64,000 bases of DNA. It comes from a virus. Its lineage: Duplodnaviria; Caudoviricetes. The translations under genes were made by a program, and so were the position numbers. The stretch is from IMG/VR virus record IMGVR_UViG_2596583697_000001, positions 32,001 to 96,000 of that record, one strand, 5' to 3'. This document shows positions 15,475-52,660 of this stretch, piece by piece (position 1 is the first letter of the stretch; every line of letters starts with the position of its first letter). The notes beneath the pieces are model-generated. The model worked only from the letters and a program-made list of their open reading frames with translations, had not been told where the DNA came from and ran no database searches.

Positions 15475-15501
15475 TTAAATCCTCCTTGTAGTGTGATTAT
15501 G

Positions 15502-20333: not shown

Positions 20334-20437
20334 ACGAGGGAAGAAACATAATTTTAATAAGCTATAGTAATTTAAAGGGTATAGGCTAATCGCTTATATC
20401 CTTTTTATATTAAGAAAAATAGGAGGAAGGCAAAACA

Positions 20438-21328
20438 ATGAATGCAAATGAATTATTAGAAAGCAAGGAATTACGCGAAAAGTTAGTTGTAAAGGTAGAA
20501 ATTTTAGAGAAGGTTAAGAAATTGCTCCTTATTCCTGGCACTGAATTAGCAACGATTAAACAGGTTGCAGAATTTTATGAAGTAGAGGAAGACACGGTTA
20601 AAAAGTTGGTATTCCGGAATCTTGAAGAGTTAGAAGAAGATGGACTTATATCTTATTCTGGTAAAGAAACCAAGGAGTTTTTTGATAGAGACAATATGTC
20701 CCTTTCAAACTTAAGAGGTGGTTTTGAAGTAAATGGAATACGTTTTAGCAATAGGGGTAATAAATTATTCCCTCGTCGTGCAATTCTACGCATAGGAATG
20801 TTACTTAGAGATTCAGCCGTTGCAAAGGAGATCCGAACTCAACTACTTAATATAGAAGAAAAGGCAACTCCTGAAGTAAAAACCATGGATATCAACGAGG
20901 AACAATCCCTTGCCTTATCCGTTGGAATGGCATATGCAAGCGGAAACCCAGACGCTATTATGATAGCTACCACTAAAATGATGGACTTTAAGAACCGGCA
21001 CATTGCAAGGTTGAACGAGTCTAACAATGCTCTGGCAAATGGTATCCTGGCATGGGAAGACAGAAGCAGGATCAATTTTGCAGTCCGTAAGATGGCAGCT
21101 TATGCCCACATTACAGTGGGTAAAGCATGGAGCGAGTTGTACAAGCAGTTAAAGAATGGTTTCCATATTGATTTACAGAGCAGAGGAAAACAGCCATGGA
21201 TACAACACGTAGATGAAAAAGAATGGCAATGCGTGATTAAAGCATTTTCTGCCTTATGCAAGTATTACGAGTTGGAGCCTAGCGAAATGTTCCATGACTT
21301 AAAAATTGAAGAAGAAACGAAAGTTTGA
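20438..21328 (+). CDS. Phage antirepressor-like DNA-binding protein
   Basis: ATIKQVAEFYEV...FPRRAILRIGMLLRDSAVAKEIRTQLL; AGGAGG RBS. Confidence 0.6.
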   Translation: MNANELLESKELREKLVVKVEILEKVKKLLLIPGTELATIKQVAEFYEVEEDTVKKLVFRNLEELEEDGLISYSGKETKEFFDRDNMSLSNLRGGFEVNGIRFSNRGNKLFPRRAILRIGMLLRDSAVAKEIRTQLLNIEEKATPEVKTMDINEEQSLALSVGMAYASGNPDAIMIATTKMMDFKNRHIARLNESNNALANGILAWEDRSRINFAVRKMAAYAHITVGKAWSELYKQLKNGFHIDLQSRGKQPWIQHVDEKEWQCVIKAFSALCKYYELEPSEMFHDLKIEEETKV

Positions 21329-21394
21329 ACAAAGGATTTGTAACGGTCAAATGTTGCAGATCCATTTTTAATTAAATAAACAGGAGGTTTTACT

Positions 21395-21568
21395 ATGAAA
21401 AACAAATTTTTAGTAACTGCACTTATAATAAGTGCTTTTTTATTAGGCAGATTTACAAATATCAATACGGACACCATAGACATGAACAAAGTAGTCAATA
21501 TCCAGGCTAACGATTACGGCGCACAGATAACCCTTCTGGACGGCAATGGCTACTATTGGGAAAGGTAG
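21395..21568 (+). CDS. Small secreted or membrane-anchored protein (57 aa)
   Basis: Manual: AGGAGG RBS, MKNKFLVTALIISAFLLG signal-like N-terminus. Confidence 0.55.
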   Translation: MKNKFLVTALIISAFLLGRFTNINTDTIDMNKVVNIQANDYGAQITLLDGNGYYWER

Positions 21569-21575
21569 GGGGATT

Positions 21576-24500
21576 ATGAGAAAATACAACACATCTAATT
21601 GTCTGCCAAGTATAGCGAAAATGAAAAAGTCATTTCCTGAATTAGTAGAGAACAAAAAGGATTTTACTAACAACAAAAAATATCTGTACGATTTTTCAAT
21701 GCTTAATGGCAAAATTCCGACTGACATTATGGAATCGATTTACGACCAGGCCATGAAACAAACTGGCATTATAGATTGTTTTGCTGTATGTGACGCTGTA
21801 TCAAGCACAGAGGACAAGAAGTATTTTGTCTATCTGGACTTTATCCCATACAAGGTAATAAACAAAAATACAGGCAGAACAAGTTATTGTGTCATGGAAC
21901 TATCGGCTATACGAATATCAGTCTATGACATGAATGTATACGGCTATGCAGAGAATATCCAAGCGGATTATATAGAAGCTGGTCACTGGAAAGAGAGCAC
22001 TTTGACATATATCAACGATATAGAAGTGGCATAGATTATCCATTTCATAGGGAGGTAAGGATATGAAACCTGTTGATTATTTGATAACTGATTTACAGAG
22101 AATGAAGGATAAAAGAGAAAATATCTGTAAGGAACTTGGTAATGGATACGATTGGATGCTAGTTGAAAGTTTAATATCCATTGAAAATAAAATTAAACAG
22201 ACAGCCGAGAGGATCGACAAAATGCAAAACCTATAAAACGATTATTTCATGATAGGGAGATAAAAAGATATGAAAAGAAAATGGGAAATAGTACATGATT
22301 GCGATGGAGACAACGGAGAACCTACTTGCTGGGTTTTAGAAGTAAATCATAACGATTATGGAAAATTTATCTGGATAACGGATTCTGCGTTAGGGTTTGA
22401 TATTGAATACAAAAGTAAATACAGTAATGATATTACTCCTCTTATAACATGTAAAACCTTAACATCTGCAAAAAGATGGGTATCAATAAATATAAGATGA
22501 AAACCGAATTTTAAGGAGGAAGTTGTTATGCACGGATATGACGTTTATTTCAAAGGTGGAATGAGAGTTTTTGTATCATCTAGCACCCCCAAAGAGGCCA
22601 TTCAAAAGGCAAAAATTAAATTTCCCGGAATGGAGGTTATTGGACATAGTCTTAAATGTATAAAAACAAATATTGTTTAATGTAAATAATATCAGCAGAG
22701 TGGAACGGCTTACATAGCCGTTTTAATGCACATGGCAAAGCCATACGGTCACAAGTCCGTAAGCATTAAGGAATGGGGGATTAAACAATGAAAAATTACA
22801 AGGTAACTTTTGAGAGAAGCAATAAAACTATTGGATCAGATGTTTTTACAGCAAATTCCAGACAGGGAGCAGGACATGAATTTAAAGAATGTTATCGACA
22901 TGATGTGTATAAAATTTTATCAATAGAGGAAGTCGAGGAACAATAAAATTCTTATTTCAAATTGAAAGGATAAAGAAAAATGAACGATGTGGGATATGAT
23001 ACAAGTTTAAAATACAAGGGTTCATATGCTGAGATAAGCGTAAAAACTGCGACACAAGACGGATTAAAGAACTTAAAACCATACTATGAGGGGGCGATAG
23101 CCTATCATACAAAAGAAAATAACAAAAGTCAAATCGCCTTCTTTTCAGAGGGATTGAATCTTATTAATAAAAGACTAAATTAACAATGAATCTATTCATT
23201 CTTTTGAAAATATGGAGGCAAAAACATATGAGTTACGATATACAGTTGGTTAATAAAGAAGATGTAAGGATAGGTGACACAATTCTATGTAATGATGGAA
23301 ATATAAGAACAGTGTGCCGAAATAACATTACTAGCGGATTTATGGGGTCGTGTTTATTTGGCGAGTCCTATCGGTTAGGGCAAGAAAGAGTTAAAAAAAT
23401 AGTCAATCTGAAATATTAATAAATTTTATTTCCAGTCATAAGCCATTAGAGAATATAACTCTAGTGGCTTTTATAGTGGGTATAACACGAAGAAAAAACA
23501 TATGGAGGATATTATCATGAGAAAAGAATATACAGTAGAACAGATGGCAGGTGCAAGATGGTTTTATACATTCACAGAACCTAATGCAAAAGGTGAAAAG
23601 ATAGTGATGGAGCTAAGCAAATGTATTAATCCAGGTGGAAGTAATGCAATTCCTGTATTATGGAATAAACATGGATATATGGATAGGGTTCTGGAAACAT
23701 ATTGGAGTATTCAAACTTATGTGACAGATACAGAGGGATATTGTTATGGAATGTATAATCCTCAAGAGAAACCAGGAAGATATGAAATAAATTTCGATTG
23801 GATATTTGAAGCAACAGAAGAGAACAAAGAAAAGTTAATTGATGAAGTTTATAAATTGGCATCGTCAGCATATGGAGAAACAGCAACAGAGAGGAAGCAC
23901 AGAAAAATTAAAGAATTTGCAGCCAAGGAAAAAGTTGAACTTTTAACAGAGATTCCGGAAGGGTGGAAGAAATTAAAAGGATCGATGACTGCACCTTACG
24001 GATCTGTGTGGGTATCTAACAAGGAACCATTTAAAAGTGGAAACAGAAAAACAGCATTATTGTTAGTTTGTTAAACTATTTTAGAAAATAGAGGTATTAA
24101 AGATGAAAAAATATACGAGAAAAAATTTTTCTGCATATTTGTCTGATTGTGACTATAAAGGTTACAGAACATATGCATGGATTGAAAATTTAACTATAAA
24201 ATATTTTTATCTGCAAACAGTAGAGGACTACACAAAGACCTTTGAGACTCTTGCAGATTTGTATGATTATATTGATAACAAGTAAAAAGTATGGGAAGGC
24301 GGTAAAAAATATGAAAACTATAAAGGTGATTTTTGAAAAAGGTAACAGCTTCACAACAAGAATTAATGGGACAGAAGACGAAATAAAAGCTTATTATGTT
24401 GGGAAGGTCTTTAACTTGGGTTGTGTGGAAGACGATTTACAGAAAGTAATAGGGGTTGAATTTTTATGAATTGCGGATGAAAAGTAAGTTTCATTTAGAA

Positions 24501-27500
24501 TGGAGGATTAAAAATCATGACAAACGCATTATTTAATCGTGGGGAAAATGGTCATATGTCAATGCGTGATATGGATCTTGAATGGTTGCGTAAACAGGCA
24601 TATTTAAAATGTAGTTTTGAAAATGCTGATATTAAAAAGATTGATAAAATCGTCAACGGAATTAAGGCAGGTAAAATTAATAAAAGCAATTTATTTGACG
24701 AAGTGCGGAAGCTAACGAAGAATGTAACAAGTGATCATTCTATAGGAAGATGGCAGTGCATTACAGAGTGGTTCAATGATACGGAATGGTTTTGAAGGTA
24801 ATGTTTACGAATCAGAATAAAATGCACGTTTAATGGTGAGTAATCGGAGAATATATATCTGGTTGCTTTTTTTATGTTCAAAACCAGGAAGGGGATTGTA
24901 ATGGACGAAAACATAATCATATGCCCAAATTGTAGCCGAAAATTAAGTATCATCAGAAAAGATGGGAATATAAGGAAAGAAATTCATTGTAGATGCCGTG
25001 ATAAATATGGGCACACGATGATCCAATGGGTATCTGGAGCAGGCTATCATTACTTTAGCAATGAAATGGAATGGATTCCAGTTATACACGGGTAAATAAA
25101 ATACATGATTTATTAGGAGGTAAAAATATATGAGTTATTATAGGAATTGGAAATGCTACAGCTATGGCTTATGTGGAAGTGATAGAGAATATGATTATCA
25201 GGAGCTTAAAGAATACTTTGAAATTGATGGTAGTGACGTTGCATATTGTAAAACAAATATTTTGGAATATAAAGCTGGCAACTATTATAGCATTCTCGCC
25301 GGTGGACAACTCAATGGTAAAGAATACGGATTTGTTATACTGGAAAGATGAAAGGAAAATTTCAAGGGAGGATATATTTTGAATAGAAATAAAATTACTT
25401 TATTCGGTGAAAAGAGCAATGTAGTTATTAAAAAGACTGGCTTATTATCCTATGGAGTATATCAAAATGGAACGCTTCTTGCAAAGTCACGAAAATTCAA
25501 GGCATACCAAAATGATATTTTAAGGATTATGTATACTGGAATTGCTTTCGGAACAGGTGATTATATTCTTGAAGCAGAAAGTATGAGCGGGATAAAAGAA
25601 ATTTATAGATGGAAAGGTTAAGATAAAAGATTTTAATGGAGGTCTTATTATGAGTTTAATTGAATATAGGAGTAATGATATTGATATGAGCGCATTTAAA
25701 GAAGATTTAAAATATTGGAGTAATTGTTGTGGGGAATTACATCACCATGGAGAATATGATATAGAAGAATTTGATTTGCCACAAGAGTTAAAGCGGGCAT
25801 ATACAGACTTATGGACTGAAGGTGGTGGCTCTTTATGCTATCTTGTTGAATACAAAGGCTTATATGGAATTGCCTTAATTAATGAATTTGATGATTGGTT
25901 CGCAGAAGATGAGGGAGTGTCCATGGATTCTCTTTATGAACAAATGAAACAGAAGGCCAATTCTTTAATTGATAATGATTTATTTAAAGAATCTCAAATT
26001 ATATGTTCCGAATATGCTGGTTTCAATGAATGTCATGAATTAATAGTTATTCTGCCTACTTATATAGAAGAAGATATATTTAATAGAATCATGGATTATC
26101 TTGATAAAACAGTTTATGGATTGAAATTGTAATTTAATTAGAAAGGGTAAAGGCAAAAAGCATGATTAAAATGATTGTAAGATATAGAGTAATGAGCGAA
26201 GTCAGAAGATTAATTAATATTGCAAAAGAAAAGGTTACTAGTGGAGGAGATGAATACGAATGGTTTGATTATGTAAATAAGTACCTTGATTTTATCTGGA
26301 ATGCTAAATTAATCAATAAGAAAAATATAGATATTTTGTGGAGAGAATTGCAAGATGCAACAAATGAAAAATAGATTTTATAAGCATATAAAAATATGGA
26401 GGTAAAAGGGTGAGTGAAAATATGAAGTTTGGAGAGAACACATATAAACAAATGATATATTTATGCAGACAAGATAAATTAACACCTGATGGAAAAGTTA
26501 GATTCAACGTAGGGTTGAAATGGCAACCTATAAATGAAAATTGGAAACCTTATTGTATAAGTGACTTACCCAATACTGTTGATAATGGAGAGGATGCAAA
26601 ACAGTTTACAGGAAGACAAAGGAAAAATGCTATTATATATGCAAAAGAATTGAAGCAAAAATACAATTTAGAAATAGACGAATCTCTTATATAGAAAATA
26701 CAATAGAAAACAGGTTTCATAGGTAGCGAAAGGAGAATAGAGAATAAATGAAAAAGTCAAAATTAGTATTGGAACTTAGCTGTTGCGTTGGTTACGGTTA
26801 TATGGCATATATTGAGTTTGGGGCGAAGGAAGCAGTTGTAGACTTTCTGAAAAATTTCTGTATGTGGGGAGGAAGCACAAAAACATTTAAAAGCTATAAC
26901 ATGTACGAATTATCAGAGGATGTGATGAAATTTATGACTACTAGATCGTTTAAATCGTGGTTGCTAAAGAACAATGTTGAGTTGCTTACAAAATACGAAG
27001 TAGAATATGATAGAGTCTTAAACGAAGTATTTTTACAAGCGTGACAATAGAAAGCACATTTTATAAACAGAGGAGAGAAAAATATAATGAAAAACGTATT
27101 TACGATTTATTTGATTATTAGCATCATAGCATTAAATATACTATTACTAAACATTAAAAAAGACAATGCCAGGCTAAAGACAATACTCAAGGAAGCACAT
27201 TATGCAACGCTTGCAGTAATATCATTTACTCCAATTATACACTTAATTGTCGTTGCATTATCGATTTTTAATAAAGGATCTATTGATATTTATGAAATGA
27301 CTAAGACATGGAAAGAGAGGGAATCATGATAAGCACTGTCAAAGATTATAACAACTCATACAGTTATCAACGAATGCACAAGAGAAAACAACGTAGAAAT
27401 TTCATAATATTGAACCGAATTATAGGAAGCATTTTACCGATGCTTTCTATTTTTTCACTCTTTATGATGTCTGATCAGTGTGGAAACTGGACATTTGCAG

Positions 27501-28230: not shown

Positions 28231-28298
28231 TAATAGAAGTGTGCTTTCATTTGGAGAATATTCTAGTGAAACTAGAAAACCAAATGAAAGGAGTTTAA

Positions 28299-28859: not shown

Positions 28860-29837
28860 CTGCCAACGAAAGAGATATTTTAACTATAAAAAGTAAAAGG
28901 AGAATGTGAAATGAAGTTAATAGAAAGAGTTTATGGTTTTGTTATCTATGAATTAGACGAAGTAATGATAAATAAATTTGGAGGAAAATACTTCCTGTCA
29001 CAAGCTGAAATATCTGAATATTGGTTGAAAAATCATTCGGTGGAAGAAACCATTTCCGAATTAAAATCATATAATTACGAGGGTATTTTTCAAACAAGGT
29101 TGGAGGCTTATTATCAAGCCAATTTAGTAGAAATGGAACATCAATATAATTTACTTAAAAATAGCATTAAGGAGACTTGTGAGAAAATGAATAATAGAAC
29201 TGACGTTAACTGGTATGAAATATCTGAATAAAAACAAGATTATATTGTGAAGATGGAGGTTGAGAAGATGAGAAGCGAAGACAGATTACAAAGTGTTTAT
29301 ATAGGAGTTGTTGCCGGGATTAAATGTTGTAAAGAAGGGGAAAGGTCAGATTATAACAAAGGGAAGATGGCAGCATATAGCGAGGTACTTAGCGCAATGG
29401 GTATAAATATTGAAGATGTATGCGTTTTGATGGCAAGTGTATGAGCCAATAAATCCACAATTTCAAGCAAGAAAAGGAGAGTAAACGTGAAAATTAAAGA
29501 GAATTTAACAGTAAGAGAAGCAGAGGACTATGCAAAAGAGAACGGATATAATAAGGTGGCATTTAGCCTTAAGATTAACGATAAATATGTCGTAAGTGGA
29601 AAATATTTAGACGCATACTATGATCTCATTGAGATCCCAGTTCTCGGAAGCGGATTTACAAGATTTGCCGATTTATGCAAAGAACATGGGGAGCGAAATT
29701 TATCTATTGATATTATAGACGAAGAAGAACTTAAAAATAGTATATCTTTTGATTTTATTATCAGGGGTAAATTTGACAGTATTCCAGAAGAATACAAAAT
29801 TGCTGAATAAAATCAGGATTTGAATGGAGGTAATATC

Positions 29838-30866
29838 ATGACATACCATGAACAAAATGATATCCAGAATATAAAAAAACTTAGAAGTATTATATCTGCA
29901 TTGCCAGCTTATTGCGAAGACTTCTTTCGGGGAATCGAGCCAAGGACTTCCTCGAAGACTAGGATTGCTTATGTGGCCGATCTGAAGCTATTTTTTGATT
30001 ATCTGATCAGAAGTGGTCAAGTAAAAGATATGGAGTCAATTACTCTTGATATGCTTTCAGGCTTGAAAATCATTGATTTTGAAAAGTATATGGAGTGGAT
30101 AAAATGTTGGACTGATGATTCAGGTAAAGAATATACCAACGGAGAAAAAGCTATTGCAAGAAAGTTGTCTACGTTGAAAGCCTTCTACAAGTATTTTCAG
30201 CAGAACGAAAGGATAGCCACTAATTCAGTATCACTTGTGCAACCACCGAAACTACGTGATAAGGAGATTATCAGGCTTGATAACGACGAAATGAAAGCAT
30301 TTATACAGGCGGTAGAAACTGGAGGTAATTTAGAAGGAAGGGAACGTGCCTTCTTTGAAATAACACAGAAGCGAGACTTTGCAATAATCATGTTGATTCT
30401 TACCACAGGAGTCCGTGTTTCTGAATGTGTTGGTTTGGATATTAATGACGTAGATTTCAAAAACAGTGGAATTAGAATCTATCGGAAAGGAGGAAAAGAA
30501 GAAACAGTATATTTCAGTGATGACACCAGAGAGGCGTTGGAACCTTATTTAGAAGAAAGAAAACAGACCGAGGCAATTAAAGGGCATGAGAATGCTCTGT
30601 TTTTATCTCTACAGAACAAACGAATATCAACCAGAAACGTAGAGGATTTGATTCCTAAGTACGCAAGGTTGGCAGGAATCCAGAAGAAGGTTACGCCTCA
30701 TACACTACGTAGAAGCTATGGAACGGCCTTATATAACGCTACAGGGGACATTTACCTAGTTGCTGGTACATTGGGCCATGCAGATGTGAACACTGCGAAA
30801 CGGCACTATGTGGCATTGGAAGACGAGAAAAAAAGAGAAAATAGAAATGCTGTTAGGCTGAGATGA
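29838..30866 (+). CDS. Tyrosine recombinase (XerC/XerS-like), catalytic residues intact
   Basis: TGVRVSE (R), RKGGK (K), PHTLRRS (HxxR), LGH (H), RHY (Y); ATG 29838 after GGAGG; flanked by palindromic sites at 29807 and 30890. Confidence 0.9.
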   Translation: MTYHEQNDIQNIKKLRSIISALPAYCEDFFRGIEPRTSSKTRIAYVADLKLFFDYLIRSGQVKDMESITLDMLSGLKIIDFEKYMEWIKCWTDDSGKEYTNGEKAIARKLSTLKAFYKYFQQNERIATNSVSLVQPPKLRDKEIIRLDNDEMKAFIQAVETGGNLEGRERAFFEITQKRDFAIIMLILTTGVRVSECVGLDINDVDFKNSGIRIYRKGGKEETVYFSDDTREALEPYLEERKQTEAIKGHENALFLSLQNKRISTRNVEDLIPKYARLAGIQKKVTPHTLRRSYGTALYNATGDIYLVAGTLGHADVNTAKRHYVALEDEKKRENRNAVRLR

Positions 30867-32854: not shown

Positions 32855-32905
32855 ATAGTAATTGATAAAAGGATTGTTTCATTAGTAATAGAAAGAGAGG
32901 ATGTT

Positions 32906-33715: not shown

Positions 33716-33749
33716 ATAAAATGATTATTTCATGAGTTAGGATAAATAC

Positions 33750-34415: not shown

Positions 34416-34473
34416 TACTTAAAAAAAGTAAATTAAATAATAGTTTTAAACGCTACCGAAGGGAGTATTTTAC

Positions 34474-38873: not shown

Positions 38874-38913
38874 TTAAACAAACTCGTGTTTTGTTTAGAA
38901 AGTAGGTGATTAG

Positions 38914-40107: not shown

Positions 40108-40117
40108 AATAAAATCT

Positions 40118-43961: not shown

Positions 43962-44594
43962 AATTAAAGATTTATCAAGAAAGGAGAAATTGATTGAAAA
44001 CTGTAGCTAACTTTAGATGTAAGGAATGTGAAGATGTTTTTCGGGCAGAATCCGGAAAATTTACGAAGTGCAAATGTGGAAAGTGTGAAGTCGAACCAGG
44101 TGACATTGGTAGCACGGCATATAAAGGAAGCGTGTGTTTCGAGAGACTAAAAGATGGCGAAGATCACACATACTACGATGAAAATGATTTTTATATTATG
44201 GAAGGCGACGTTCTAGATTTATTTAACAAGACGAAGCTGATGTGTGAAGAACTAGATTTTCACATATACGAATCATTCAAGAAAGGTGAAGATGAGAGTG
44301 AATATTTGTCTTATCTGAACTACACAAAATCAGATCTAATTAACCATAATGAGATGAATGAAATTCAATTCTGTGTGAGATTTGATAAGTATTTTAATGA
44401 GAAGGATTACATTAGCCGCTTAGAATCATTTTATAACTTTCTTTTATATTTAAAAAGTAACCCAGAACTTTTAACCAAGAGAAAAGAATTGTTAAAATAT
44501 TCTGATGAAAAAGATGTTGAGTGGAGTAGAGAACAAGTAAAAGATTATGACTATAAGTTTTATTTTTAGAATAGAAACAGAGTTCAATTAAGAT

Positions 44595-45649: not shown

Positions 45650-46170
45650 GATAAAATGAAAATTTCAAGAAATTAATTTAGGAGAGCAAAAATAAATGGA
45701 AAGAAATCATAGATTAACAGTTAAAGAAATGATAGAGGAATTATCTAAATGTAATCCTGACGCAGAGGTCATTGCAGAGAGTCCATATAGGGATCAATTT
45801 AGAATATATACCGTAACTGAAAGTGATTGCAAGTCAGTCATTTGGCTTGAGGCTTAGTAATTGAAGGTATGATTTTAAGGAGGGGTTATGGAGAAAGCAA
45901 AGGTTTTTAATACACCAAAAGAAATTGTTGAATACTATTTTTCTAATAGGATTAGTAATGCTTGTGGCGGAGGAGTTATCGGTTGCCCATATGAACAATG
46001 TTATTCCGGATATATAAATTTACTTGAAAATGAGTGCGCTAAGTATTGTAAGGGTTTTGAAGCTGGTAAGACTCCGGACGAGATATGTGGAGAATGTTGG
46101 AATCAGCAGCTAAAGTAACTTTAAATTGACGAATTCAAAGGAGGGATAATAGAGGAACAGTAATAATTTA

Positions 46171-46214
46171 ACCCACATAAATAGCGCTTATTAGAAAAAG
46201 GCATTTATGTGGGT
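46171..46214. terminator. Hairpin between convergent genes
   Basis: ACCCACATAAAT...ATTTATGTGGGT 12-bp stem. Confidence 0.6.
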
Positions 46215-46230
46215 CATACAATCCATTTTA

Positions 46231-46896: not shown

Positions 46897-47207
46897 CCTT
46901 AAGGGTTTTGATATATACTATGAAATGCGATTTGTATTGTTACTATTAATACAAAGTATTTTAAAATTTTTTTAACAGGCCGTCATGCGTTTATTATATA
47001 AGTTTGATGAAATATCAACTACGAGTGATTTAGCGGAATTTATTATTAATAAGTCATTTTAGAGAGTGTGATTAAAAATGAATCAAGCAACCATTATAAA
47101 AGAAACAGTTAAAAAGATGTTCTCAAAGAGTTAATTAAAGACCTACAAGAAGAACGTATTTATCTACTTGCCACGGTTACAGAAGGTTAGTTGATATATA
47201 GATGAAA

Positions 47208-47496
47208 GTAACGTTTCCAAGTCATTACTAATATTAATCCGGTAAAATTTATGTATATTGCCTTGTTTGTCAAAGCCTTTAATTATTTGTCTGTCTAACC
47301 AAAAATAACCCTCTTTTAATTCTGATAATTTTTCACCAGTGGTATCTCGTAGGAACGTGAGATATTCGTTAAATATTGGATTCACTCAATACCTGAGTGT
47401 AATGTACATTACTTTTTAACTAGTATTATCTTTCCCTTTCTTTATTTTTGACGTTTGCAACCGTCAGTTTATTTTATAAGTGGGATGAAACGTTAC
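47208..47496. mobile_element. 289-bp inverted segment carrying the leader and first 56 codons of the PAPS-reductase-like gene
   Basis: Inverted 10-bp repeats GTAACGTTTC (47208-17) and GAAACGTTAC (47487-96); both ORFs read ETL in frame across the repeat. Confidence 0.8.
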
Positions 47497-48620
47497 ATTT
47501 AAGTAAAGCAAAAGATTATCGGGATATTAACGATATTGAATTAGCAAGTTGGAATGACCTTATTGAGTTAAATAAGGAACACTTAGAAAACATAGAATCA
47601 GATTCTTTAAATTTAATCAAAGATAAAATGGAGAAATATAAAGGACATGATTCGCTAATTCCTGTGTCAATGGGAAAAGATTCTATGGTTGTATCTCATC
47701 TTGTAAGATCTTTATATCCCAACACTAAGGCAATTTTCAATAATACATCACTTGATTGTGCCGACACATATAAAATGGTTAAACATTTTCCTAGCTGTGA
47801 AATTATGAATCCCGACAAAGGATTCTATCAATATGTCGCATCAGACCATATGATACCAACAAGATTTTCGAGATTCTGTTGTAGAATTTTCAAAGTTGGG
47901 GTTATGGTTTCAAAATTAGGCCACGAACACCCATATCTCATGTGGATGGGCATGAGAAACGAAGAATCTGCTACAAGAAGTGGCTATACAGATGAATGGA
48001 TTAATGAATCAGAATGGGGGAATACGAAATGGCAAGGTATTCTTCCTATTAGAAAGTGGACAGAGTTAGACATTTGGCTATATACATTATGGAGAAATAT
48101 TGATATCAATCCTAAATATAAAAAGGGATATAGTAGATGTGGCTGCCATATAGCTTGCCCATATTATAACAAATCCACATGGACATTGGATAAGTATTGG
48201 TATTCAAAATCGTATGATAGATGGAGAAATATATTAGAGAAAGATTTTATTGAAAATAAGAAATGGATTGTGATGAATTGTACAATTAGTGAATATTTAA
48301 CACAAGCTTGGAATGGTGGAATTTATAGAGACGAACCCACAAAAGAAGTTATAGAAGAATTCGCTCAATATAACAATCTTCAATACGATATTGCCGAAAA
48401 GTATTTCAATAAATATTGTGAGAATGAATGTAAAACTCAATCTGGAAAAATCAAGAAAATTAAGGACAAACAGGTACTGGGAATGAACATGAAACTACAT
48501 GGGATAAATACTAATAAGTTTTATTGCAAATCGTGTTTAATGAAAATGCATTATATTGACAATGAACAATGGGATAAGTATATAGATGATTTTAAAAAAT
48601 CAGGATGTGACTTGTTCTAA
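47487..48620 (+). CDS. PAPS-reductase/DndC-like PP-loop protein, 3' part (5' part inverted at 47385-47217)
   Basis: VSMGKDS PP-loop, RFCC, GMRNEES, PIRKW, RCGCHIACP; Cys-rich C-terminus. Confidence 0.8.
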   Translation, partial: ETLHLSKAKDYRDINDIELASWNDLIELNKEHLENIESDSLNLIKDKMEKYKGHDSLIPVSMGKDSMVVSHLVRSLYPNTKAIFNNTSLDCADTYKMVKHFPSCEIMNPDKGFYQYVASDHMIPTRFSRFCCRIFKVGVMVSKLGHEHPYLMWMGMRNEESATRSGYTDEWINESEWGNTKWQGILPIRKWTELDIWLYTLWRNIDINPKYKKGYSRCGCHIACPYYNKSTWTLDKYWYSKSYDRWRNILEKDFIENKKWIVMNCTISEYLTQAWNGGIYRDEPTKEVIEEFAQYNNLQYDIAEKYFNKYCENECKTQSGKIKKIKDKQVLGMNMKLHGINTNKFYCKSCLMKMHYIDNEQWDKYIDDFKKSGCDLF

Positions 48621-51600
48621 TGAAATAATACTTTGATTGGAGAATAAAATGGCGACAGAAAAACAAGATATGTCTAATTGCTGTAAATGATGGGAGGAAA
48701 GATGGGTGATTTAGGCTGGGTTATAATAATTGCAATTGCTGCAGTTGTGGCAGTAATTGAAAAGATATGTGATACATACAAGGAAACTCATAAAAAGGAC
48801 AAAGATAAATAACATTAAAATCAACATTTAATGGGGAAATACGAAATTTTCAAAGAAGACTATATGAAAAATAGGAGGATTAAAAGATGAGATATATTTC
48901 AGATGATAACAAGGTATTTAATTCAGAACAGGAGTGTTTAAATCATGAAAAGGCTATTACTTCCGAAAGAGCAAAGCGTGAAAAATTACTTGCTGAAAAA
49001 AATAAGCGCAGTGATGAAGTAAGGAAAATAGGCAATGATTTTGTAAAACTACATAAGAAGTTCGTAGATGACTACGGTGAGGAGATTGCTTTTGATAACG
49101 ACTTGGAGTCACTGGCTTCCTGGTACAGTACGCTTCCATTTTTATTTAGGTCAGGTAGATTTGGTATATAAATACGGGATAAAAGAACAGTTTGATGGAA
49201 GGAGGGAATAAATTTGTTTAGCGGAATCTTAGGTGGGTTATTTTTTGCATTTATACTTGCATTTTTCGGTGCAGACAGTGCATTTTTGAAAGCAGTAGAG
49301 CCATTTATAAATGTAAAGTTAACCACTACTCATTGGTACATAATGTTTGCAATTATTGGTGGGATTGCAGGTTTATTTGGTAGAGACAACTAAAGATATA
49401 TTTTATGAGAAAAGAGGTGAATTTAACGAAAAGAATGTCAAGAGATTCGTGGGAGTGGAAGAAGATTCAATATTTTAAGAACTTGTCTATCAGAAAATTC
49501 TATCCAAGGTTTTTGTATTATAAGTGCGATAAATGCGAAGAAGAGTTCATAAAAGAAGCAATGTATGAGTGTGCGGAACCAAGTATTATTGGTTGTTCTT
49601 GGAATTACCACAAATATGGCTGTTCTCATTGCTTTGATAGCATCGATGGCTTTCAGAACTGGTTAATTAAAAGCGGCAAGATCCTTGTGGAAGATGACTT
49701 TAATGTCCGCGGAGATCTGAACAAAATGAGAAAATTGCTATTTAAAAAGAGGGAGGGGTTAAATGTGTTTGGCAGGTTAAGAAAACTACTTGGCGATTTG
49801 TTAGAACCAGAAATTGAAACATTCCAAAAGAAAGAAGTAATCTTTAAAACTACAGATTGTAAATTACATAAAAATTCCTCATATAAATGGTGTAGAATCT
49901 CTGGATTGATATCCCGAAATTTTGAAAAATACGCAATGATTGGAATTACTTCAGACGGCTACTTGAAAGATGACGATGGACTCCTATTTCCATTGAATAA
50001 TATCATTTCTATGCAGTGGAATTTAAGTGACGAAACGGAAAGAATTAGTAGATATAAAGATCAGTATAAAATTTGGTTCAGTGACAATGAATTAGCAGAA
50101 ATGGAATTACCATAAAACAGTACTTTTCTGAGAAAGGAAAATTTAATGAATGTAATGAAAAATATACGGTTTATTGTTACAAATGAGGAGATCTTAAGTG
50201 AAAGAAGGGTTAGTGTAGTATATAATTTCAATGAAAATGACTACTGCGTAACGTTTAAGCCAGAAGATTCAGATTTTTCTATGGGTAATAGCTTTGTTAA
50301 AGCATGGATTGAGGAGAAAAATCCGCATATCCTATATCTTGACGTAGAAGAGGAAGATAACTCTAAAATTAATATATCCTCATTTAAAATTAATTATTTA
50401 GAGAGAACGTATTCAATAACTAGAAATAGTGTTGAAAATGAATTGTGGAGGTCTAAATGAATAAAGAAGACGAATTAAAACTTGAAGCAGCCATTAAGGA
50501 AAACATGGACAAGGTAAGATTTGATGGATTATCTGCTGGAGCAAAAGGGATTTCCGGTGCTATCTTGGAAATTTGCAATGATAAGAATATTAAGAATGAT
50601 ACAGTCAGGATCAACAAGATTAGAGATTTCTGTATGACTGGACTTGGATTGAAGAAAGTGTAATGATATAAATAAGGACGGATTAAATGAAAAATGATTT
50701 AATTAGTGTATTGAAAAAAGAGGGGAAATATGTATTACTCGTAAAAGTACGTAAAGAATTTGATGGCATTGTAATGAGAAACGATATTATAGAATTAGAT
50801 AAAAATGATATTCTTGATGTCGATGTACAAAATCAAATAGATAAATATATGTCACAACATGATATTAGAAAAATTATATTAAATGATAATGTTGTTTGGG
50901 AAGCATCAAAGAGAACGGTTTTGGATATGACAGGGCAAAATGGACGAATGTATTAAACTTAATAGAAACATTCTTTTATAGTGAAAGGAGATGTATAAAG
51001 TGATTGATATTAAAAATTTAGGAAAACAAAAATATATTTATCGCATTTATGAAACAGAAGACGATGTTCTTCATCGTGAAAAATATCCGATAATCTATAT
51101 AAACAGCAAGGTTATATATTTTAAAGATGCCAGAAAGAAAGAATATTTAAACTATACTGTGACTTCAAATGTATTAAATAACTTTACTGAATTCTATAGA
51201 AAATCGTGGATTTTTAGTCCTGGTTGGAGTCCATGTTTTGATAAATATTTTTGGAATTGTGACCCAGACATCAAAGAAATCTATGCTGATTTGTTGGTAC
51301 AAAGGGATGTACTTAGAAAGAAAGATGCCGAAGAAAAAAGAAAGTTTCGTCTTGAAAAAGCAAAAAAGGAGTATGAAGCAGCATTAAAGGACGCATGTGT
51401 ATAATATATCAATTTGCCACGAAAGGAGAACGAATGCCAATAAGTTATTTACATAGTAATCCAGATATTAGAGGAGAGGTCTGTCCAATTTGCGGTAAGC
51501 GGTCATGGAGCATATATAAATGTGATGATTGTGGGAAGGTATTTTGTAAGTATTGTCGGCCAGATCTTGTAAATTTGCTTGATGACGACAGGTTTGGTGA

Positions 51601-51944
51601 TTTAGAAGTCAGTTGTGATTGTGGCAGCACAACATTATTTTTAGATGAATAGGAGAAGTTCAATATGAAACCATTAGTATATTTTGATTTTGAAGAGTAT
51701 GACGGCGACAATAATTTGGTATTAGTAGATAAGAAAAGGCTACAGGAGATTTTAGAGGAAGTATATAATGCCGGGTTTACTGACGGTAACAAATCAAGTC
51801 CGGTAACAGTGCCTACATATGGAAATTTGAGACATTCTTTTCGAGGTGACGAGGTGACATGCGGTGATATTAACACAAATACACCTGTCGCTAAAAGAGG
51901 AGTTGTAATTACCTGAGACGCTGAAACTAATAGTAAATCTTAAT

Positions 51945-52571
51945 TTAGTTCTTTTTAATGTATAAAAATGTGTAAAGAACCAAAGATTCAAAAACAATTG
52001 GTATCATCCCAATTAATACATTATTCCACTCGCCATTGATGAGATATATATAAATGGCCGAGACGCTATATATTAATAGTCCACAAATTATAAATATCGA
52101 AACATAGTAAAACCTGTCCATTTTATTTAATCGTTTGTAATTGTTTAATATAGAATTCGTTGGATAGCCCAATTCCAGTTTAAGCTTTTCGTAATCTCCT
52201 TCTATTTGATATATAAAAGCTGATATATGAAAATGGTTCGGGTTCTTTGCGGTAGCTTGTGTTTTAAAATTCTCATATAGGTTAATCGTTTTAGGATAAA
52301 CATATTGATAATTTTTATAGATGATTTTGTCTACCTTTTTGATAAATATTGGAACATTGTCTTTACTGCCTTCAATGTTGTATTGTATCATTAATAAATA
52401 CATGGGTAAATATACTAAATCGAATTGGGACTGTTTTATTTCTCGTTTTTTGGGAGCAGTTAGGTTTTTCGATGTGAAATAATATGTTAATAAACAAGGA
52501 ATAATTATTTTAAATATATCTAGTACAATGTTTGAATTGGCTCTATAAAAATCAATAATTAATTTTAACAT
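51945..52571 (-). CDS. Membrane protein (moron-like, opposite strand)
   Basis: N- and C-terminal hydrophobic segments; bounded by sites at 51932 and 52631. Confidence 0.6.
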   Translation of the reverse strand: MLKLIIDFYRANSNIVLDIFKIIIPCLLTYYFTSKNLTAPKKREIKQSQFDLVYLPMYLLMIQYNIEGSKDNVPIFIKKVDKIIYKNYQYVYPKTINLYENFKTQATAKNPNHFHISAFIYQIEGDYEKLKLELGYPTNSILNNYKRLNKMDRFYYVSIFIICGLLIYSVSAIYIYLINGEWNNVLIGMIPIVFESLVLYTFLYIKKN

Positions 52572-52660
52572 ATATTATTACCTCAAAGATTTGATATAAC
52601 ATAGTTTATCATAGAACCAATAAAACCACAATAGAAGTGTAGTTTTATAAACTTAGAAAT

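What the first reader, a model, noticed from the sequence alone, without database searches (positions are those of the whole stretch)
20341..52648. Integron/pdif-like cassette array: a 6-6-6 palindrome marks most gene junctions of the accessory region, which encodes its own tyrosine recombinase
Seen: about 45 sites (counted by eye) with 6-bp arms around a variable 6-bp spacer. Examples are ATGAAA-AGTAAG-TTTCAT (24477), ATAAAA-CGATTA-TTTCAT (22233), ATAGAA-GTGTGC-TTTCAT (28233), ATAAAA-GGATTG-TTTCAT (32865), ATCAAA-GGATAA-TTTGAT (41432) and ATAGAA-GTGTAG-TTTTAT (52631). They lie at or just after a stop codon, which is often inside the left arm, and just before the next RBS. They also bracket the opposite-strand morons and the recombinase gene (29807, 30890). 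Two occur back to back at 41922/41944, like an empty cassette. I did not notice them at junctions in the replication block. Established: inverted arms around a 6-bp spacer is the layout of tyrosine-recombinase core sites such as Xer/dif. Inference: the phage gains, loses and reorders single-gene cassettes through these sites using the recombinase at 29838-30866. The inversion at 47208-47496 looks like a footprint of that activity. Alternatives are repressor operators (a repeated element bound by MrpR is known in SPbeta) or RNA-processing signals.
Basis: partly seen in the sequence, partly recalled or inferred. Interest (0 to 1): 0.93.

Follow-up and report, generated by a model that had tools for sequence, protein, structure and literature searches.

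The report
Address-tagged recombination sites between phage genes
A large prophage-like phage genome carries dozens of 18-bp sites between its accessory genes, each with its own 6-bp "address" that related phages keep in the same order while the genes between them differ, which looks like a natural cassette-exchange system run by a Xer-like recombinase.

Summary
The motif is real. ATNRAA-N6-TTYNAW occurs 41 times in the 114-kb genome, against 7-19 at other spacings. 27 of the 41 are intergenic, and 25-26 lie in the finding's region. The sites sit at or after a stop codon and just 5' of the next RBS. They bracket a catalytically intact Xer-like tyrosine recombinase and are nearly absent from the replication block.

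The new result is comparative. Three related proviruses and one MAG contig carry the same motif. Their 6-bp spacers match the window's exactly and in the same order, yet the DNA and proteins on both sides are usually unrelated. Spacers are either identical or unrelated. They are unique within a genome, and each arm travels with its adjacent gene. Contigs from four metagenome runs break homology at the same sites. One site also serves as an arm of a 289-bp invertible segment that switches a PAPS-reductase gene. That segment is found ON in 22 and OFF in 9 of 31 loci, with covarying spacers.

Best reading: heterospecific recombination sites that allow ordered cassette exchange. It is not an integron. 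The order of addresses is fixed, so reordering is not supported. The enzyme assignment is inferred. Other first-stage notes flagged the same stretch of this genome; none concerned other DNA.

The parts
22031..22048 (+). junction site, spacer TATCCA (1 arm mismatch)
   Evidence: same spacer at sites in G001, G002, G003
22233..22250 (+). junction site ATAAAA-CGATTA-TTTCAT
   Evidence: strict match; spacer shared with G002, G003
22497..22514 (+). junction site, spacer ACCGAA
   Evidence: strict; shared with G001, G002
22943..22960 (+). junction site, spacer TTCTTA
   Evidence: strict; shared with G001
24477..24494 (+). junction site, spacer AGTAAG
   Evidence: strict; shared with G001, G002, G003, L056 while flanks differ
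24817..24834 (+). junction site, spacer TGCACG
   Evidence: strict; shared with G001, G002, G003, L056
25348..25365 (+). junction site, spacer GGAAAA
   Evidence: strict; shared with L056
26121..26138 (+). junction site, spacer TTGTAA (1 mismatch)
   Evidence: shared with G001, G002, L056
26364..26381 (+). junction site, spacer AATAGA
   Evidence: strict; shared with G001, G002, G003, L056
26703..26720 (+). junction site, spacer AACAGG
   Evidence: strict; no exact counterpart
27047..27064 (+). junction site, spacer AGCACA
   Evidence: strict; shared with G001, G003, L056
28233..28250 (+). junction site, spacer GTGTGC
   Evidence: strict; shared with G001
29228..29245 (+). junction site, spacer ACAAGA (1 mismatch)
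   Evidence: shared with G001, G002
29449..29466 (+). junction site, spacer CCACAA (1 mismatch)
   Evidence: shared with G001, G002
29807..29824 (+). junction site upstream of the recombinase, spacer TCAGGA
   Evidence: strict; shared with G001, G002
29838..30866 (+). Xer-like tyrosine recombinase, 342 aa
   Evidence: PF00589 7e-37 and PF02899; best PDB relatives XerA, XerD; XerS/XerA/XerC/XerD models all below cut-off; top PF00589 hit in each of G000-G003
30890..30907 (+). junction site downstream of the recombinase, spacer GCAGTC
   Evidence: strict; relatives carry GACATG at this junction
32865..32882 (+). junction site, spacer GGATTG
   Evidence: strict; shared with G001, G002
33716..33733 (+). 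junction site, spacer TGATTA
   Evidence: strict; shared with G001, G002, G003
34432..34449 (+). junction site, spacer TAATAG
   Evidence: strict; shared with G001, G002
34788..34805 (+). junction site, spacer TTTGAG
   Evidence: strict; shared with G001, G002, G003
40109..40126 (+). junction site, spacer TCTTTG
   Evidence: strict; shared with G002, G003
41432..41449 (+). junction site, spacer GGATAA
   Evidence: strict; shared with G002, G003
41944..41961 (+). junction site, spacer GGTGCA
   Evidence: strict; shared with G001-G003; metagenome contigs break here
42391..42408 (+). junction site, spacer TCGGAA (1 mismatch)
   Evidence: shared with G001, G002; X1 and X2 contigs start identity at 42391
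42930..42947 (+). junction site, spacer CTCCGC (1 mismatch)
   Evidence: shared with G001, G002; X1 and X2 contigs diverge at 42944
44571..44588 (+). junction site, spacer ACAGAG
   Evidence: strict; shared with G002, G003; X2 contig replaces 44589-46127 by 682 other letters
45651..45668 (+). junction site, spacer TGAAAA
   Evidence: strict, 28 nt before a start; no exact counterpart
46108..46125 (+). degenerate junction site AGCTAA-AGTAAC-TTTAAA (2 mismatches)
   Evidence: X1, X2, X3 contigs all begin homology at 46127
47202..47219 (+). left end of the invertible segment: hybrid site ATGAAA-GTAACG-TTTCCA
   Evidence: spacer shared with G001, G002; X1 and X3 contigs carry another cassette after this spacer
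47208..47496 (-). invertible segment, here in the OFF state: about 115-nt leader, RBS and first ~59 codons of the PAPS-reductase gene
   Evidence: in-silico flip gives one 433-codon frame; 433-aa homologues carry this N-terminus; 22 loci ON and 9 OFF of 31
47485..47502 (+). right end of the invertible segment: hybrid site ATGAAA-CGTTAC-ATTTAA, spacer reverse-complementary to the left one
47497..48620 (+). body of the PAPS-reductase-like gene, cut off from its start
   Evidence: PF01507 3.8e-23; phrog_424
48620..48637 (+). junction site, spacer TAATAC
   Evidence: strict; shared with G001
48815..48832 (+). junction site, spacer TCAACA (1 mismatch)
   Evidence: shared with G001; X1, X2, X3 contigs diverge at 48829/48830
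49179..49196 (+). junction site, spacer GAACAG
   Evidence: strict; shared with G001, G003; X4 contig breaks at 49193
49389..49406 (+). junction site, spacer GATATA (1 mismatch)
   Evidence: shared with G001
50112..50129 (+). junction site, spacer CAGTAC (1 mismatch)
   Evidence: shared with G001, G002, G003
50962..50979 (+). junction site, spacer ACATTC
   Evidence: strict; shared with G002, G003; X1 and X2 contigs end identity exactly at 50979
52631..52648 (+). junction site, spacer GTGTAG
   Evidence: strict; shared with G001-G003; X4 contig joins at 52635

Best explanation
The accessory arm of this roughly 114-kb temperate phage is tiled with 18-bp duplex recombination sites. Its host is probably Acetobacterium, judged from the title of the closest genome contig.

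Site structure. Each site has two loosely conserved inverted 6-bp arms, A(T/G)NRAA and TTYNAT, around a 6-bp asymmetric spacer. The spacer is different at every junction. The arms are the common recognition element. The spacer acts as a position-specific address.

Mechanism. Tyrosine recombinases exchange strands at the edges of the central region and need the two partners' central regions to match. A site should therefore recombine productively only with the site of the same address in another phage or prophage of the family. A crossover at one address swaps everything to one side of it. Two crossovers replace the cassette between two addresses. Unrelated genes can thus be exchanged slot by slot with no flanking homology, while gene order is kept and no deletions arise within a genome. 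This resembles recombinase-mediated cassette exchange with heterospecific lox sites.

Enzyme. The most likely enzyme is the Xer-like tyrosine recombinase encoded inside the array at 29838-30866.

Inversion switch. One address (GTAACG) has also recombined with an inverted look-alike inside the next gene. This forms a reversible 289-bp inversion that disconnects the PAPS-reductase gene from its leader and first ~59 codons. In this window the switch is in the OFF state.

Shown: the motif, its placement, address conservation with unrelated flanks, breakpoints at the sites, and the inversion polymorphism. Inferred: site-specific catalysis, the spacer-matching rule, and which enzyme acts.
For: (1) The motif is specific to 6-bp spacing and to intergenic junctions of the + arm. 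It is also enriched in three relatives: 41/46, 28/27 and 17/21 forward/reverse hits, against 6/4, 7/6 and 1/1 for the reversed-pattern control.

(2) 50 of 6191 inter-genome site pairs share the exact spacer, against 4-12 at offsets outside the motif and 21-22 at the two offsets just 3' of it. Around these pairs, identity is about 0.35 (background) from the first base outside the 18 bp.

(3) Of 38 such pairs that lie between called genes, 30 have no blastp-detectable homology (E < 1e-3) in either flanking protein.

(4) Spacers are all-or-none. There are 50 pairs at 0 mismatches and 36 at 1 mismatch; controls give 4-11 and 56-101. Meanwhile the degenerate arm positions agree in only 52-82% of the same pairs.

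(5) Orientation and order are fixed. No pair has reverse-complementary spacers. Shared addresses are monotonic in 11 of 11 (G002), 8 of 8 (G003) and 13 of 14 (G001) cases.

(6) Addresses are unique within genomes: 0/820, 1/990, 0/378 and 0/136 duplicate pairs.

(7) Each arm co-segregates only with its adjacent flank. The right arm is identical in 13/18 pairs with a homologous right flank against 54/146 without (Fisher p = 0.005). The left arm gives 7/14 against 38/150 (p = 0.06). The cross-comparisons are flat, at 5/18 vs 40/146 and 6/14 vs 61/150. This places the exchange between the arms.

(8) Contigs from 4 metagenome runs stop matching, or jump, at 10 sites.

(9) The inversion. Flipping 47208-47496 in silico restores a canonical site and a single 433-codon frame. 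174 longer proteins, most about 433 aa with PF01507, carry the inverted piece as their N-terminus. 22 loci are ON and 9 OFF of 31. The upstream and in-gene spacers covary in four classes. At least 4 state changes are needed on the gene tree, and one OFF row has a gene body identical to two ON rows.

(10) The recombinase has all seven catalytic residues: R193, E196, K217, H288, R291, H314, Y324, read from the alignments. It is the best PF00589 hit in all 4 genomes that carry the array. No serine recombinase is present. A 6-bp central region with strand exchange at its edges is the XerCD/dif layout (PMC2965235, passages read).
Against: - No biochemical or read-level evidence shows that any recombinase acts here.
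- The arms carry information over only about 6 bp. That is shorter than the 11-13-bp arms of dif, lox or FRT.
- Genomes with the array and the recombinase are close relatives, so their co-occurrence is not independent: 4 phage records plus one contig with an 89% identical recombinase.
- 79 loci around more distant homologues (47-59% identity) and 2 phage records (47-49%) show no such motif.
- The inversion also occurs in phages that lack a close homologue of this recombinase. In 27 records the best hit is 35% identical over part of the protein, and the motif is only weakly enriched, 200 against 110. The 5 of these that I checked each encode 2-4 other tyrosine recombinases.
- The recombinase gene lies 17 kb from the invertible segment.
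- The breakpoints cannot be resolved within the conserved AAA-N6-TTT core. Short-homology recombination inside identical 12-18-bp cores would leave the same footprint.
- Gene calls came from a simple script of my own.
Confidence: 0.58

Rival explanations
1. Short-homology recombination at conserved junction elements, as with PeSLs. On this reading the 18-bp elements exist for another reason, such as protein binding or regulation. They are then simply the only shared sequence at which host RecA or a phage annealing protein can cross over between diverged phages. No site-specific strand exchange is involved.
For: Recombination between small conserved intergenic cassettes drives modular shuffling in T4-type phages (PMC2839356, abstract read). 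Here identity between mosaic relatives is confined to the 18 bp. Breakpoints cannot be placed more finely than the AAA-N6-TTT core. The inversion ends share a 10-bp inverted repeat that could support illegitimate recombination.
Against: - 12-18 bp is a very short substrate for homologous recombination.
- No RecT, ERF or Rad52-type annealing protein was found in any of the 4 records, which are 47-78% complete.
- It does not explain why spacers are perfectly kept while the degenerate arm positions vary.
- It does not explain why the inverton's two spacers covary in four lineages, or why ON and OFF alternate between identical gene bodies.
- The elements have no stable hairpin, unlike PeSLs.
Confidence: 0.2
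2. The sites are real site-specific recombination sites, but the enzyme is not the embedded recombinase. It could be a host Xer or invertase-type recombinase, or one of the phage's other tyrosine recombinases.
For: The PAPS-reductase inverton, with the same kind of arm, occurs in phages that have no close homologue of the embedded recombinase. The window's genome has two further PF00589 genes. The embedded gene is itself bracketed by sites like any other cassette.
Against: The embedded recombinase is present at about 83% nucleotide identity in all four array-bearing genomes, although the region around it is highly mosaic. It is Xer-like, the class that uses 6-bp central regions.
Confidence: 0.2
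3. The sites are operators for a DNA-binding regulator, such as a recombinase-fold repressor like MrpR on SPBRE or a stoperator-type repressor. They would control expression of each early gene. The mosaic breakpoints would then be incidental.
For: MrpR of SPbeta has a tyrosine-recombinase fold and binds a repeated intergenic element (PMC10516654, abstract and passages read). The sites lie directly 5' of ribosome-binding sites in one transcription direction.
Against: - A dimeric binder that reads the arms should leave the spacer free to drift. Instead the spacer is the best-conserved part, it is junction-specific, and the arms vary.
- MrpR has lost 4 of 7 catalytic residues. This protein keeps all 7.
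- Regulation alone does not explain the inversion or the breakpoints.
Confidence: 0.1
4. The motif is an RNA-level signal in the polycistronic early transcripts: a hairpin, a processing site or a translational operator.
For: Placement upstream of each RBS and one consistent orientation with transcription.
Against: The degenerate arm positions do not covary: positions 3 and 16 pair in 46% of 123 distinct sites, against 40% expected. The mean folding energy of the 18-mers is -0.33 kcal/mol, against -0.13 for shuffles. An RNA signal would also not explain address conservation, DNA breakpoints or the inversion.
Confidence: 0.03

Closest known systems
Recombinase-mediated cassette exchange with heterospecific lox/FRT sites (engineered; recalled knowledge)
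   Same: Common arms with different spacers. Only sites with matching spacers recombine, so a cassette flanked by two different sites is exchanged in place and is not excised.
   Different: RMCE is a laboratory design with 2-4 site variants and 13-bp arms. Here there is a natural array of at least 35 distinct spacers in one genome, with 6-bp arms, and the rule is inferred from comparative data only.
Integrons (IntI, attI, attC cassette arrays), including those reported in phages (PMC9892861, abstract read)
   Same: A tyrosine recombinase gene beside a one-directional array of mostly promoterless small genes separated by recombination sites.
   Different: The sites are 18-bp duplex core sites, not 55-140-bp folded attC. 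No attI or Pc layout is seen. The integron-integrase models score far below cut-off (74.6 vs 265 bits and 45 vs 435 bits). Order is fixed and spacers are unique, so there is no free excision or reinsertion.
Xer/dif and the pdif (dif) modules of Acinetobacter plasmids (PMC6449649, PMC13141974 and others, seen in the search listing only; XerCD/dif layout from PMC2965235, passages)
   Same: A Xer-like enzyme, a 6-bp central region between inverted arms, and accessory genes bounded by such sites in mosaic replicons.
   Different: dif arms are 11 bp and differ for XerC and XerD. From recall, dif modules are bounded by sites in alternating orientation and can move between plasmids. Here the arms are about 6 bp and alike, all sites point the same way, and each has a position-specific spacer.
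PeSL regulatory cassettes of T4-type phages (PMC2839356, abstract; PMC4122927, listing)
   Same: Small conserved elements at the junctions of accessory genes in hyperplastic regions, at which modular exchange between related phages occurs.
   Different: PeSLs are promoter-plus-terminator hairpins used by homologous recombination between like copies, and they can form mini-circles. The present sites have no hairpin, differ from each other in the spacer, and sit beside a tyrosine recombinase gene.
DNA invertons and shufflons driven by tyrosine recombinases, including intragenic invertons (10.1101/2023.03.11.532203, listing and start of abstract)
   Same: The 289-bp segment is bounded by inverted repeats, exists in both orientations in nature, and has one repeat inside the coding sequence.
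   Different: Here the repeat is one member of a genome-wide family of junction sites, and the candidate invertase lies 17 kb away rather than next to the switch.
MrpR/SPBRE of phage SPbeta (PMC10516654) and the stoperators of mycobacteriophage L5 (recalled)
   Same: Many copies of a short element in the intergenic regions of one phage. In SPbeta the element is bound by a protein with a tyrosine-recombinase fold.
   Different: Those elements are repressor sites and the protein is catalytically dead. Here the catalytic residues are intact, and the comparative signal lies in the spacer and the breakpoints.

Membership tests
Tyrosine recombinase superfamily (Pfam PF00589) | C-terminal catalytic domain above the Pfam cut-off | tested here: met
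   127.2 bits against a cut-off of 27.1, plus the N-terminal SAM-like domain PF02899 at 30.6 bits against 22.3
Tyrosine recombinase superfamily (Pfam PF00589) | Catalytic R, D/E, K, H, R, H/W, Y | tested here: met
   R193, E196, K217, H288, R291, H314, Y324, read from the alignments to XerA and XerD. The list of defining residues is as given in PMC10516654
XerC / XerD / XerS / XerA equivalogs (NCBIfam) | Score above the curated equivalog cut-off | tested here: not met
   XerS 199.7 vs 267; XerA 180.2 vs 220; XerC 167.5 vs 335; XerD 158.1 vs 330. The protein is Xer-like but belongs to none of these
Xer/dif-type core site | 6-bp central region between inverted binding arms | tested here: met
   Only the 6-bp spacing is enriched
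Xer/dif-type core site | Binding arms of about 11 bp | tested here: not met
   The position weight matrix carries information only in the 6 bp on each side, about 13 bits in all
pdif/dif modules | Modules bounded by sites of alternating orientation; the same module found in different contexts (recalled definition) | tested here: not met
   All shared spacers have the same orientation, with 0 reverse-complement matches. Their order is collinear
Integron | Integron-type integrase | tested here: not met
   TIGR02249 74.6 vs 265 bits; NF011946 45 vs 435 bits
Integron | attC sites (long imperfect palindromes that fold as single strands) | tested here: not met
   The sites are 18 bp with mean folding energy -0.33 kcal/mol
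Integron | Cassettes excised as circles and reinserted at attI | not testable with these tools
   Only assembled contigs of public runs were available. Unique spacers argue against excision
DNA inverton (phase-variable invertible segment) | Inverted repeats at both ends | tested here: met
   Spacers GTAACG and CGTTAC with a shared 10-bp inverted repeat; 11-14-bp repeats in relatives
DNA inverton (phase-variable invertible segment) | Both orientations occur in natural populations | tested here: met
   22 ON and 9 OFF of 31 loci; at least 4 changes on the gene tree, with identical gene bodies in both states
DNA inverton (phase-variable invertible segment) | Both orientations within one clonal population | not testable with these tools
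   No raw reads of a holder were on offer
PeSL-type regulatory cassette | Stable terminator stem-loop | tested here: not met
   No stable fold and no arm covariation
MrpR/SPBRE-type repressor system | Recombinase-fold protein that has lost its catalytic residues | tested here: not met
   All seven are present, against three of seven in MrpR

The most novel reading that the evidence does not exclude
This is a natural counterpart of recombinase-mediated cassette exchange. A phage-encoded Xer-like recombinase, together with several dozen heterospecific 6-bp-spacer sites, turns the accessory genome into numbered slots. Diverged phages and prophages of the family could then swap unrelated genes one slot at a time, without flanking homology and without losing gene order. 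The same enzyme-site pair would be co-opted as an ON/OFF inversion switch for a DNA-modification-type gene.
Probability: 0.45. Interest if true: 0.92.

Novelty: new variant of a known kind. Interest (0 to 1): 0.86.

Why it matters
Phage genomes are mosaics with breakpoints at gene boundaries. Whether this comes from random illegitimate recombination followed by selection, or from dedicated junction sequences, is an old open question; the linker idea of the modular theory is recalled here from memory. This family offers a concrete and testable case for a dedicated mechanism. It has a defined 18-bp site, a candidate enzyme, a simple rule (same spacer recombines, different spacer does not), and natural genomes in which at least 27 of 35 strict sites keep their address while the neighbouring genes change.

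If the rule holds, it would explain how anti-defence, methylase, nuclease and toxin-type cassettes turn over so fast in these phages. It would add a third architecture, beside integrons and dif modules, for recombinase-based gene capture. It would also supply a ready-made set of dozens of mutually orthogonal recombination sites for one small recombinase, which would be useful for genome engineering. Separately, the PAPS-reductase switch is a clear example of a partly intragenic inverton in phages.

Tried and rejected
RNA hairpin or processing signal. Rejected: no covariation and no stable fold.

'Empty cassette' at 41922/41944. The first element has two arm mismatches, and no relative has its spacer. 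Not supported.

Nearest public phages.
- Megablast of window 28000-34000 against the phage collection found nothing.
- The recombinase finds only hits at 49% identity or less there.
- The two best records (L054, L055) show no motif: 3 and 1 hits at N6, no more than at other spacings.

Distant recombinase homologues in genomes. Across 80 loci the N6 count is 72, against 43-84 at other spacings. Only L056 (8 vs 1.4) stands out, and perhaps L065 (6 vs 1.9).

Generic palindrome scans.
- A scan for perfect 6-mer arms was too insensitive even for the window's own genome.
- A 4- and 5-mer arm scan found only conserved coding palindromes and a dif-like palindrome unrelated to this motif.

tblastn of the 73-aa inverted piece against the phage collection gave no match. 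The PAPS-reductase body finds only hits below 60% identity that cover at most 65% of the query.

HSP-end analysis. 43 of 568 ends of blastn matches fall within -10..+28 of a strict site, while such intervals cover about 1% of each genome. I give this little weight, because gene junctions in general were not used as the control.

The N7 spacing control is not independent of N6 at one mismatch. I dropped it from the comparison and say so.

Co-occurrence of the inverton with a particular recombinase clade in 27 distant phages. No clean pattern emerged, so this is left open.

Annealing proteins RecT, ERF and Rad52. None found in 4 incomplete records. This is weak negative evidence only.

Public runs. 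No RNA holder was listed. Only assembled contigs of partial holders (share 0.29 or less) could be laid, so stretches of 40000-53000 without cover, and the absence of circles or of mixed orientations, say nothing.

Literature. None listed a paper describing junction sites with position-specific spacers in a phage. This holds only for that open-access library. Supplementary files were not opened.

As a result, the DNA context of the two closest intact PAPS-reductase proteins (P0001, P0002) was not seen.

Full report
WHAT THE WINDOW IS

The window is bases 32001-96000 of a single 114,483-bp virus record classed as a provirus. Structural genes run on the minus strand up to about 50 kb of the genome. 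From 51.6 kb onward nearly all genes run on the plus strand. G+C is 31-37%. The finding's range, window 20341-52648, is the first block of small plus-strand genes. A replication block follows at about window 53000-72000, and a second block of small genes lies beyond the window.

Cassette products with a Pfam hit:
- an HNH nuclease and a GIY-YIG nuclease;
- a GmrSD-N domain protein;
- a PemK/MazF-like protein;
- an amidoligase;
- C5 and N6/N4 DNA methylases;
- a DUF4397 protein on the minus strand;
- a PAPS-reductase-like protein.

I used the degenerate pattern ATNRAA-N(s)-TTYNAW and varied only the spacer length. The genome gives 41 hits at s = 6 and 7-19 at every other s from 0 to 12. With the centre outside called genes, it gives 27 at s = 6 against 1-7 elsewhere. 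35 of the 41 are in the plus-strand arm. The 6 in the structural arm are what the other spacings predict.

The sites end 13-29 nt before the next start codon, directly 5' of the Shine-Dalgarno sequence. The upstream stop codon lies in the left arm or a few bases before it. In the finding's range there are 25-26 strict sites. There is also an excess of one-mismatch intergenic sites: 34 at N6 against 10-19 at N3, N4, N5, N8 and N9.

By my own crude gene calls, 32 of 65 plus-strand starts in the range have a site with at most one mismatch within 65 nt upstream. In the replication block the figure is 2 of 23. So 'about 45' is plausible, and 'most junctions' is about half. The planned Markov-chain shuffles were not run, because timed out. 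The spacing series and the reversed-pattern control serve as the chance controls.

NOT AN RNA HAIRPIN

Among 123 distinct strict sites from four genomes, the degenerate arm positions 3 and 16 can pair in 46%, against 40% expected from their base frequencies. The 18-mers fold at -0.33 kcal/mol on average, against -0.13 for shuffles. No spacer is palindromic (0 of 123), so every site has a direction.

RELATIVES

The recombinase found three IMG/VR proviruses with 85% identical proteins. I fetched their whole contigs: G001 135,533 bp, G002 116,195 bp and G003 69,849 bp. They are syntenic with the window's genome but extremely mosaic: 38-41 kb of 114 kb aligns to G001 or G002, in 42-46 pieces. All three are enriched for the motif, with 41/46, 28/27 and 17/21 hits on the two strands against 6/4, 7/6 and 1/1 for the pattern read backwards.

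One genome contig, whose title names an Acetobacterium wieringae MAG, encodes an 89% identical recombinase. It has 8 motif hits in 11.9 kb against a mean of 1.4 at other spacings. This is my only basis for naming a likely host.

THE KEY RESULT: THE SPACER IS A CONSERVED, POSITION-SPECIFIC ADDRESS

Between the four genomes, 50 of 6191 site pairs have identical 6-bp spacers. The same count for 6-mers at fifteen offsets outside the motif is 4-12, and 21-22 at the two offsets just 3' of it, where RBS-like sequence begins.

Mismatch distribution. There are 50 pairs at 0 mismatches and 36 at 1 mismatch, where the controls give 4-11 and 56-101. Matching spacers are therefore either identical or unrelated, with no intermediates. 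No pair matches in reverse complement.

Order. Shared spacers are monotonic in 11 of 11 cases with G002, 8 of 8 with G003 and 13 of 14 with G001 (listing). The one exception lies in a second, partial array at one end of G001.

Uniqueness. Within a genome spacers are essentially never repeated: 0 of 820, 1 of 990, 0 of 378 and 0 of 136 site pairs.

Coverage. Of the 35 strict sites in the plus arm of the window's genome, 27 have the same spacer at a site (at most one arm mismatch) in at least one of the four relatives. The controls give 8-14.

FLANKS ARE UNRELATED

Around the spacer-matched pairs, per-base identity is at background (about 0.35) from the first base outside the 18 bp on either side. 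Local alignment of the 200 nt on each side gives noise-level scores for most pairs.

Of 50 pairs examined at the protein level, 12 touch a called gene and were set aside. Of the other 38:
- 30 have no blastp hit (E < 1e-3) between the upstream proteins or between the downstream proteins, and the lengths often differ greatly;
- 3 share only the upstream gene;
- 3 share only the downstream gene;
- 2 share both.

One further pair at a contig end was dropped. The same address thus persists while the genes on both sides are replaced.

WHERE THE EXCHANGE HAPPENS

Within the matched pairs, the degenerate arm positions agree far less than the spacer: position 3 in 52%, position 4 in 82%, position 16 in 68%.

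I then used a looser set of 164 spacer-matched pairs, which includes chance pairs. The right arm is identical in 13 of 18 pairs whose right flank is homologous, against 54 of 146 otherwise (Fisher p = 0.005). The left arm is identical in 7 of 14 against 38 of 150 (p = 0.06). The opposite-side comparisons show nothing: 5/18 vs 40/146 and 6/14 vs 61/150. Each arm therefore travels with its own cassette, and the exchange point lies between the arms. This is what strand exchange at a central region predicts.

INDEPENDENT DATA

I laid Logan contigs of four metagenome runs on window 40000-53000. These runs hold at most 29% of the sampled words. The contigs match in blocks, several at 100% identity. 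They stop or jump at 41946, 42391, 42944, 44589, 46127, 47216, 48829/48830, 49193, 50979 and 52635. Each of these positions lies inside, or within a base or two of the edge of, a site with 0-2 arm mismatches.

Other break positions in that table have no good site nearby: 43001, 43447, 48300, 48606, 49042 and 52872 (3 mismatches or more). Some of these are contig ends or divergence within genes.

At 47216 two runs carry the spacer GTAACG, followed by a canonical right arm, an RBS and a different gene (loose-end consensus).

THE INVERSION

An earlier first-stage note gave the lead. The left end of the segment reads ATGAAA-GTAACG-TTTCCA (47202-47219). The right end reads ATGAAA-CGTTAC-ATTTAA (47485-47502). 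The two spacers are reverse complements.

Flipping 47208-47496 in a script gives a canonical site, ATGAAA-GTAACG-TTTCAT. It also gives one open frame of 433 codons that joins the minus-strand ORF to the PAPS-reductase frame. The 73-aa minus-strand ORF matches 174 longer proteins. Most of the 120 listed are about 433 aa with PF01507, and the best two are 97-98% identical and exactly 433 aa.

In IMG/VR, 33 loci encode relatives. In 31 of them the N-terminal piece could be located:
- in 22 it is in line with the gene;
- in 9 it is inverted just upstream, as in the window.

The repeats consist of the spacer plus the TTTCA(T) arm. The spacer differs between lineages but always matches its inverted partner: GTAACG here, CCAATC in most loci, CGAAAC in L037 and CAACGC in L035. 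Four loci without such a repeat at the leader are all ON.

I built a tree of the gene body with 29 rows. Left out were L027, L045, L050, L052 and L053, which are truncated or partial. The tree needs at least 4 changes of state. One OFF row is identical over the aligned body to two ON rows, and another OFF row differs from an ON row by 0.001. This is a reversible, programmed inversion. Its upstream arm is an ordinary member of the junction-site family.

THE ENZYME

The ORF at 29838-30866 has the phage-integrase catalytic domain (7e-37) and the N-terminal SAM-like domain. Its closest solved relatives are XerA, XerD, a XerD fusion, IntI4 and a XerC-like protein. The best NCBIfam models are XerS, XerA, XerC and XerD, all below their cut-offs. 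The integron-integrase and invertase models score far lower.

From the printed alignments I read R193, E196, K217, H288, R291, H314 and Y324, which is the full catalytic set. It is the best PF00589 hit in each of the four array-bearing records. None of these records has a serine recombinase. The gene is about 83% identical in nucleotides in all relatives, in the middle of a very mosaic region, and it is bracketed by sites.

Limits of this link:
- The array-bearing genomes are close kin.
- Loci around homologues of 47-59% identity show no such motif.
- The 27 more distant phages that carry the inverton have no close homologue. 17 of the 27 have any hit at E <= 1e-5, and the best is 35% identical over part of the protein. 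Their motif enrichment is only slight, 200 against 110.
- All 5 of those that I checked do encode 2-4 tyrosine recombinases and no serine recombinase.

HOW IT MOST LIKELY WORKS

Tyrosine recombinases of the Xer type bind inverted arms and exchange strands at the edges of a 6-bp central region (PMC2965235). From recalled, established knowledge of Cre and Flp, productive exchange needs matching central regions. This is why lox variants with different spacers do not cross-react.

Applied here, every junction would be a site that recombines only with the same-address junction of another family member. That accounts for five observations:
- perfect and all-or-none spacer conservation;
- fixed order and orientation;
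- uniqueness within a genome, so that no deletions arise;
- arms that follow their cassettes;
- flanks that can be wholly unrelated.

The inversion fits as an occasional, then co-opted, reaction with an inverted pseudo-site of matching spacer inside the gene.

COMPARISON WITH KNOWN SYSTEMS

- Not an integron: there are no attC sites and no IntI, and cassettes are not reordered.
- Not a dif-module system: the arms are about 6 bp, all sites have one orientation, and the addresses are position-specific.
- Not a PeSL: there is no hairpin.
- Not an MrpR/SPBRE system: the catalytic residues are intact, and the conserved part is the spacer.
- The closest functional analogue is engineered cassette exchange with heterospecific sites.
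- Nine literature searches in the open-access library listed no description of such an array in a phage.

CONFIDENCE

- The motif and its placement are secure.
- That the sites are the mosaic junctions and carry conserved addresses is well supported in four genomes, one extra contig and four metagenome runs.
- Site-specific catalysis, the spacer-matching rule and the identity of the enzyme are inferences. I put the full model at about 0.58.
- The main rival is short-homology recombination at these same elements.

Noticed in passing
window 15497-15581 and 52646-52737: An ~85-bp element occurs as an inverted pair, one copy near the divergent-arm junction and one just after the last site of the finding's range. 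Each copy holds two boxes close to TTTTCTTTATTTATTTGTAA. It may be an operator or promoter element that frames the early region.
   Followed up: partly
G001 (reverse-complemented contig) 1-15 kb versus 89-107 kb: G001 holds a second, partial array. Its spacers ACAAGA, CCACAA, TCAGGA, TAAGTG, CTCCGC and TGACGA repeat addresses of its main array or of G002. This could be a second related prophage remnant or a duplication.
   Followed up: no
L060, L061, L063, L076, L078 and others (22 places in 79 loci): Long palindromes of the form AGTTTACATAA-N5-TTATGTAAACT, often extended into longer hairpins, occur near distant homologues of the recombinase in Lachnospiraceae-type contigs. They look dif-like from recall, and their positions relative to the gene vary.
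   Followed up: partly
G022 about 73.7-77.4 kb: A distant phage with the inverton has a small cluster of canonical sites next to its own ~340-aa recombinase (34% identical). One of them has the spacer TGACGA, which is also used in G001 and G002.
   Followed up: no
window 32906-33715, 35772-36323, 28299-28859, 33750-34415, 43053-43961, 44595-45449: Cassette cargo includes a GmrSD-N domain protein, a PemK/MazF-like protein, HNH and GIY-YIG nucleases, and C5 and N6/N4 methylases. This is a defence and counter-defence flavoured gene set.
   Followed up: partly
L021, L022, L030, L049: A lineage of the PAPS-reductase gene lacks the ~115-nt leader and the 11-bp repeat. It has only an 8-bp inverted match at -68 and is ON in all four loci.
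   Followed up: no
left arms of the sites, window-wide: The common left arms ATAAAA, ATGAAA and ATAGAA each contain a stop codon (TAA, TGA, TAG) at positions 2-4. By symmetry the right arms contain one on the other strand. In the window that stop is the actual stop of the upstream gene at only 5 of the 41 strict hits.
   Followed up: partly
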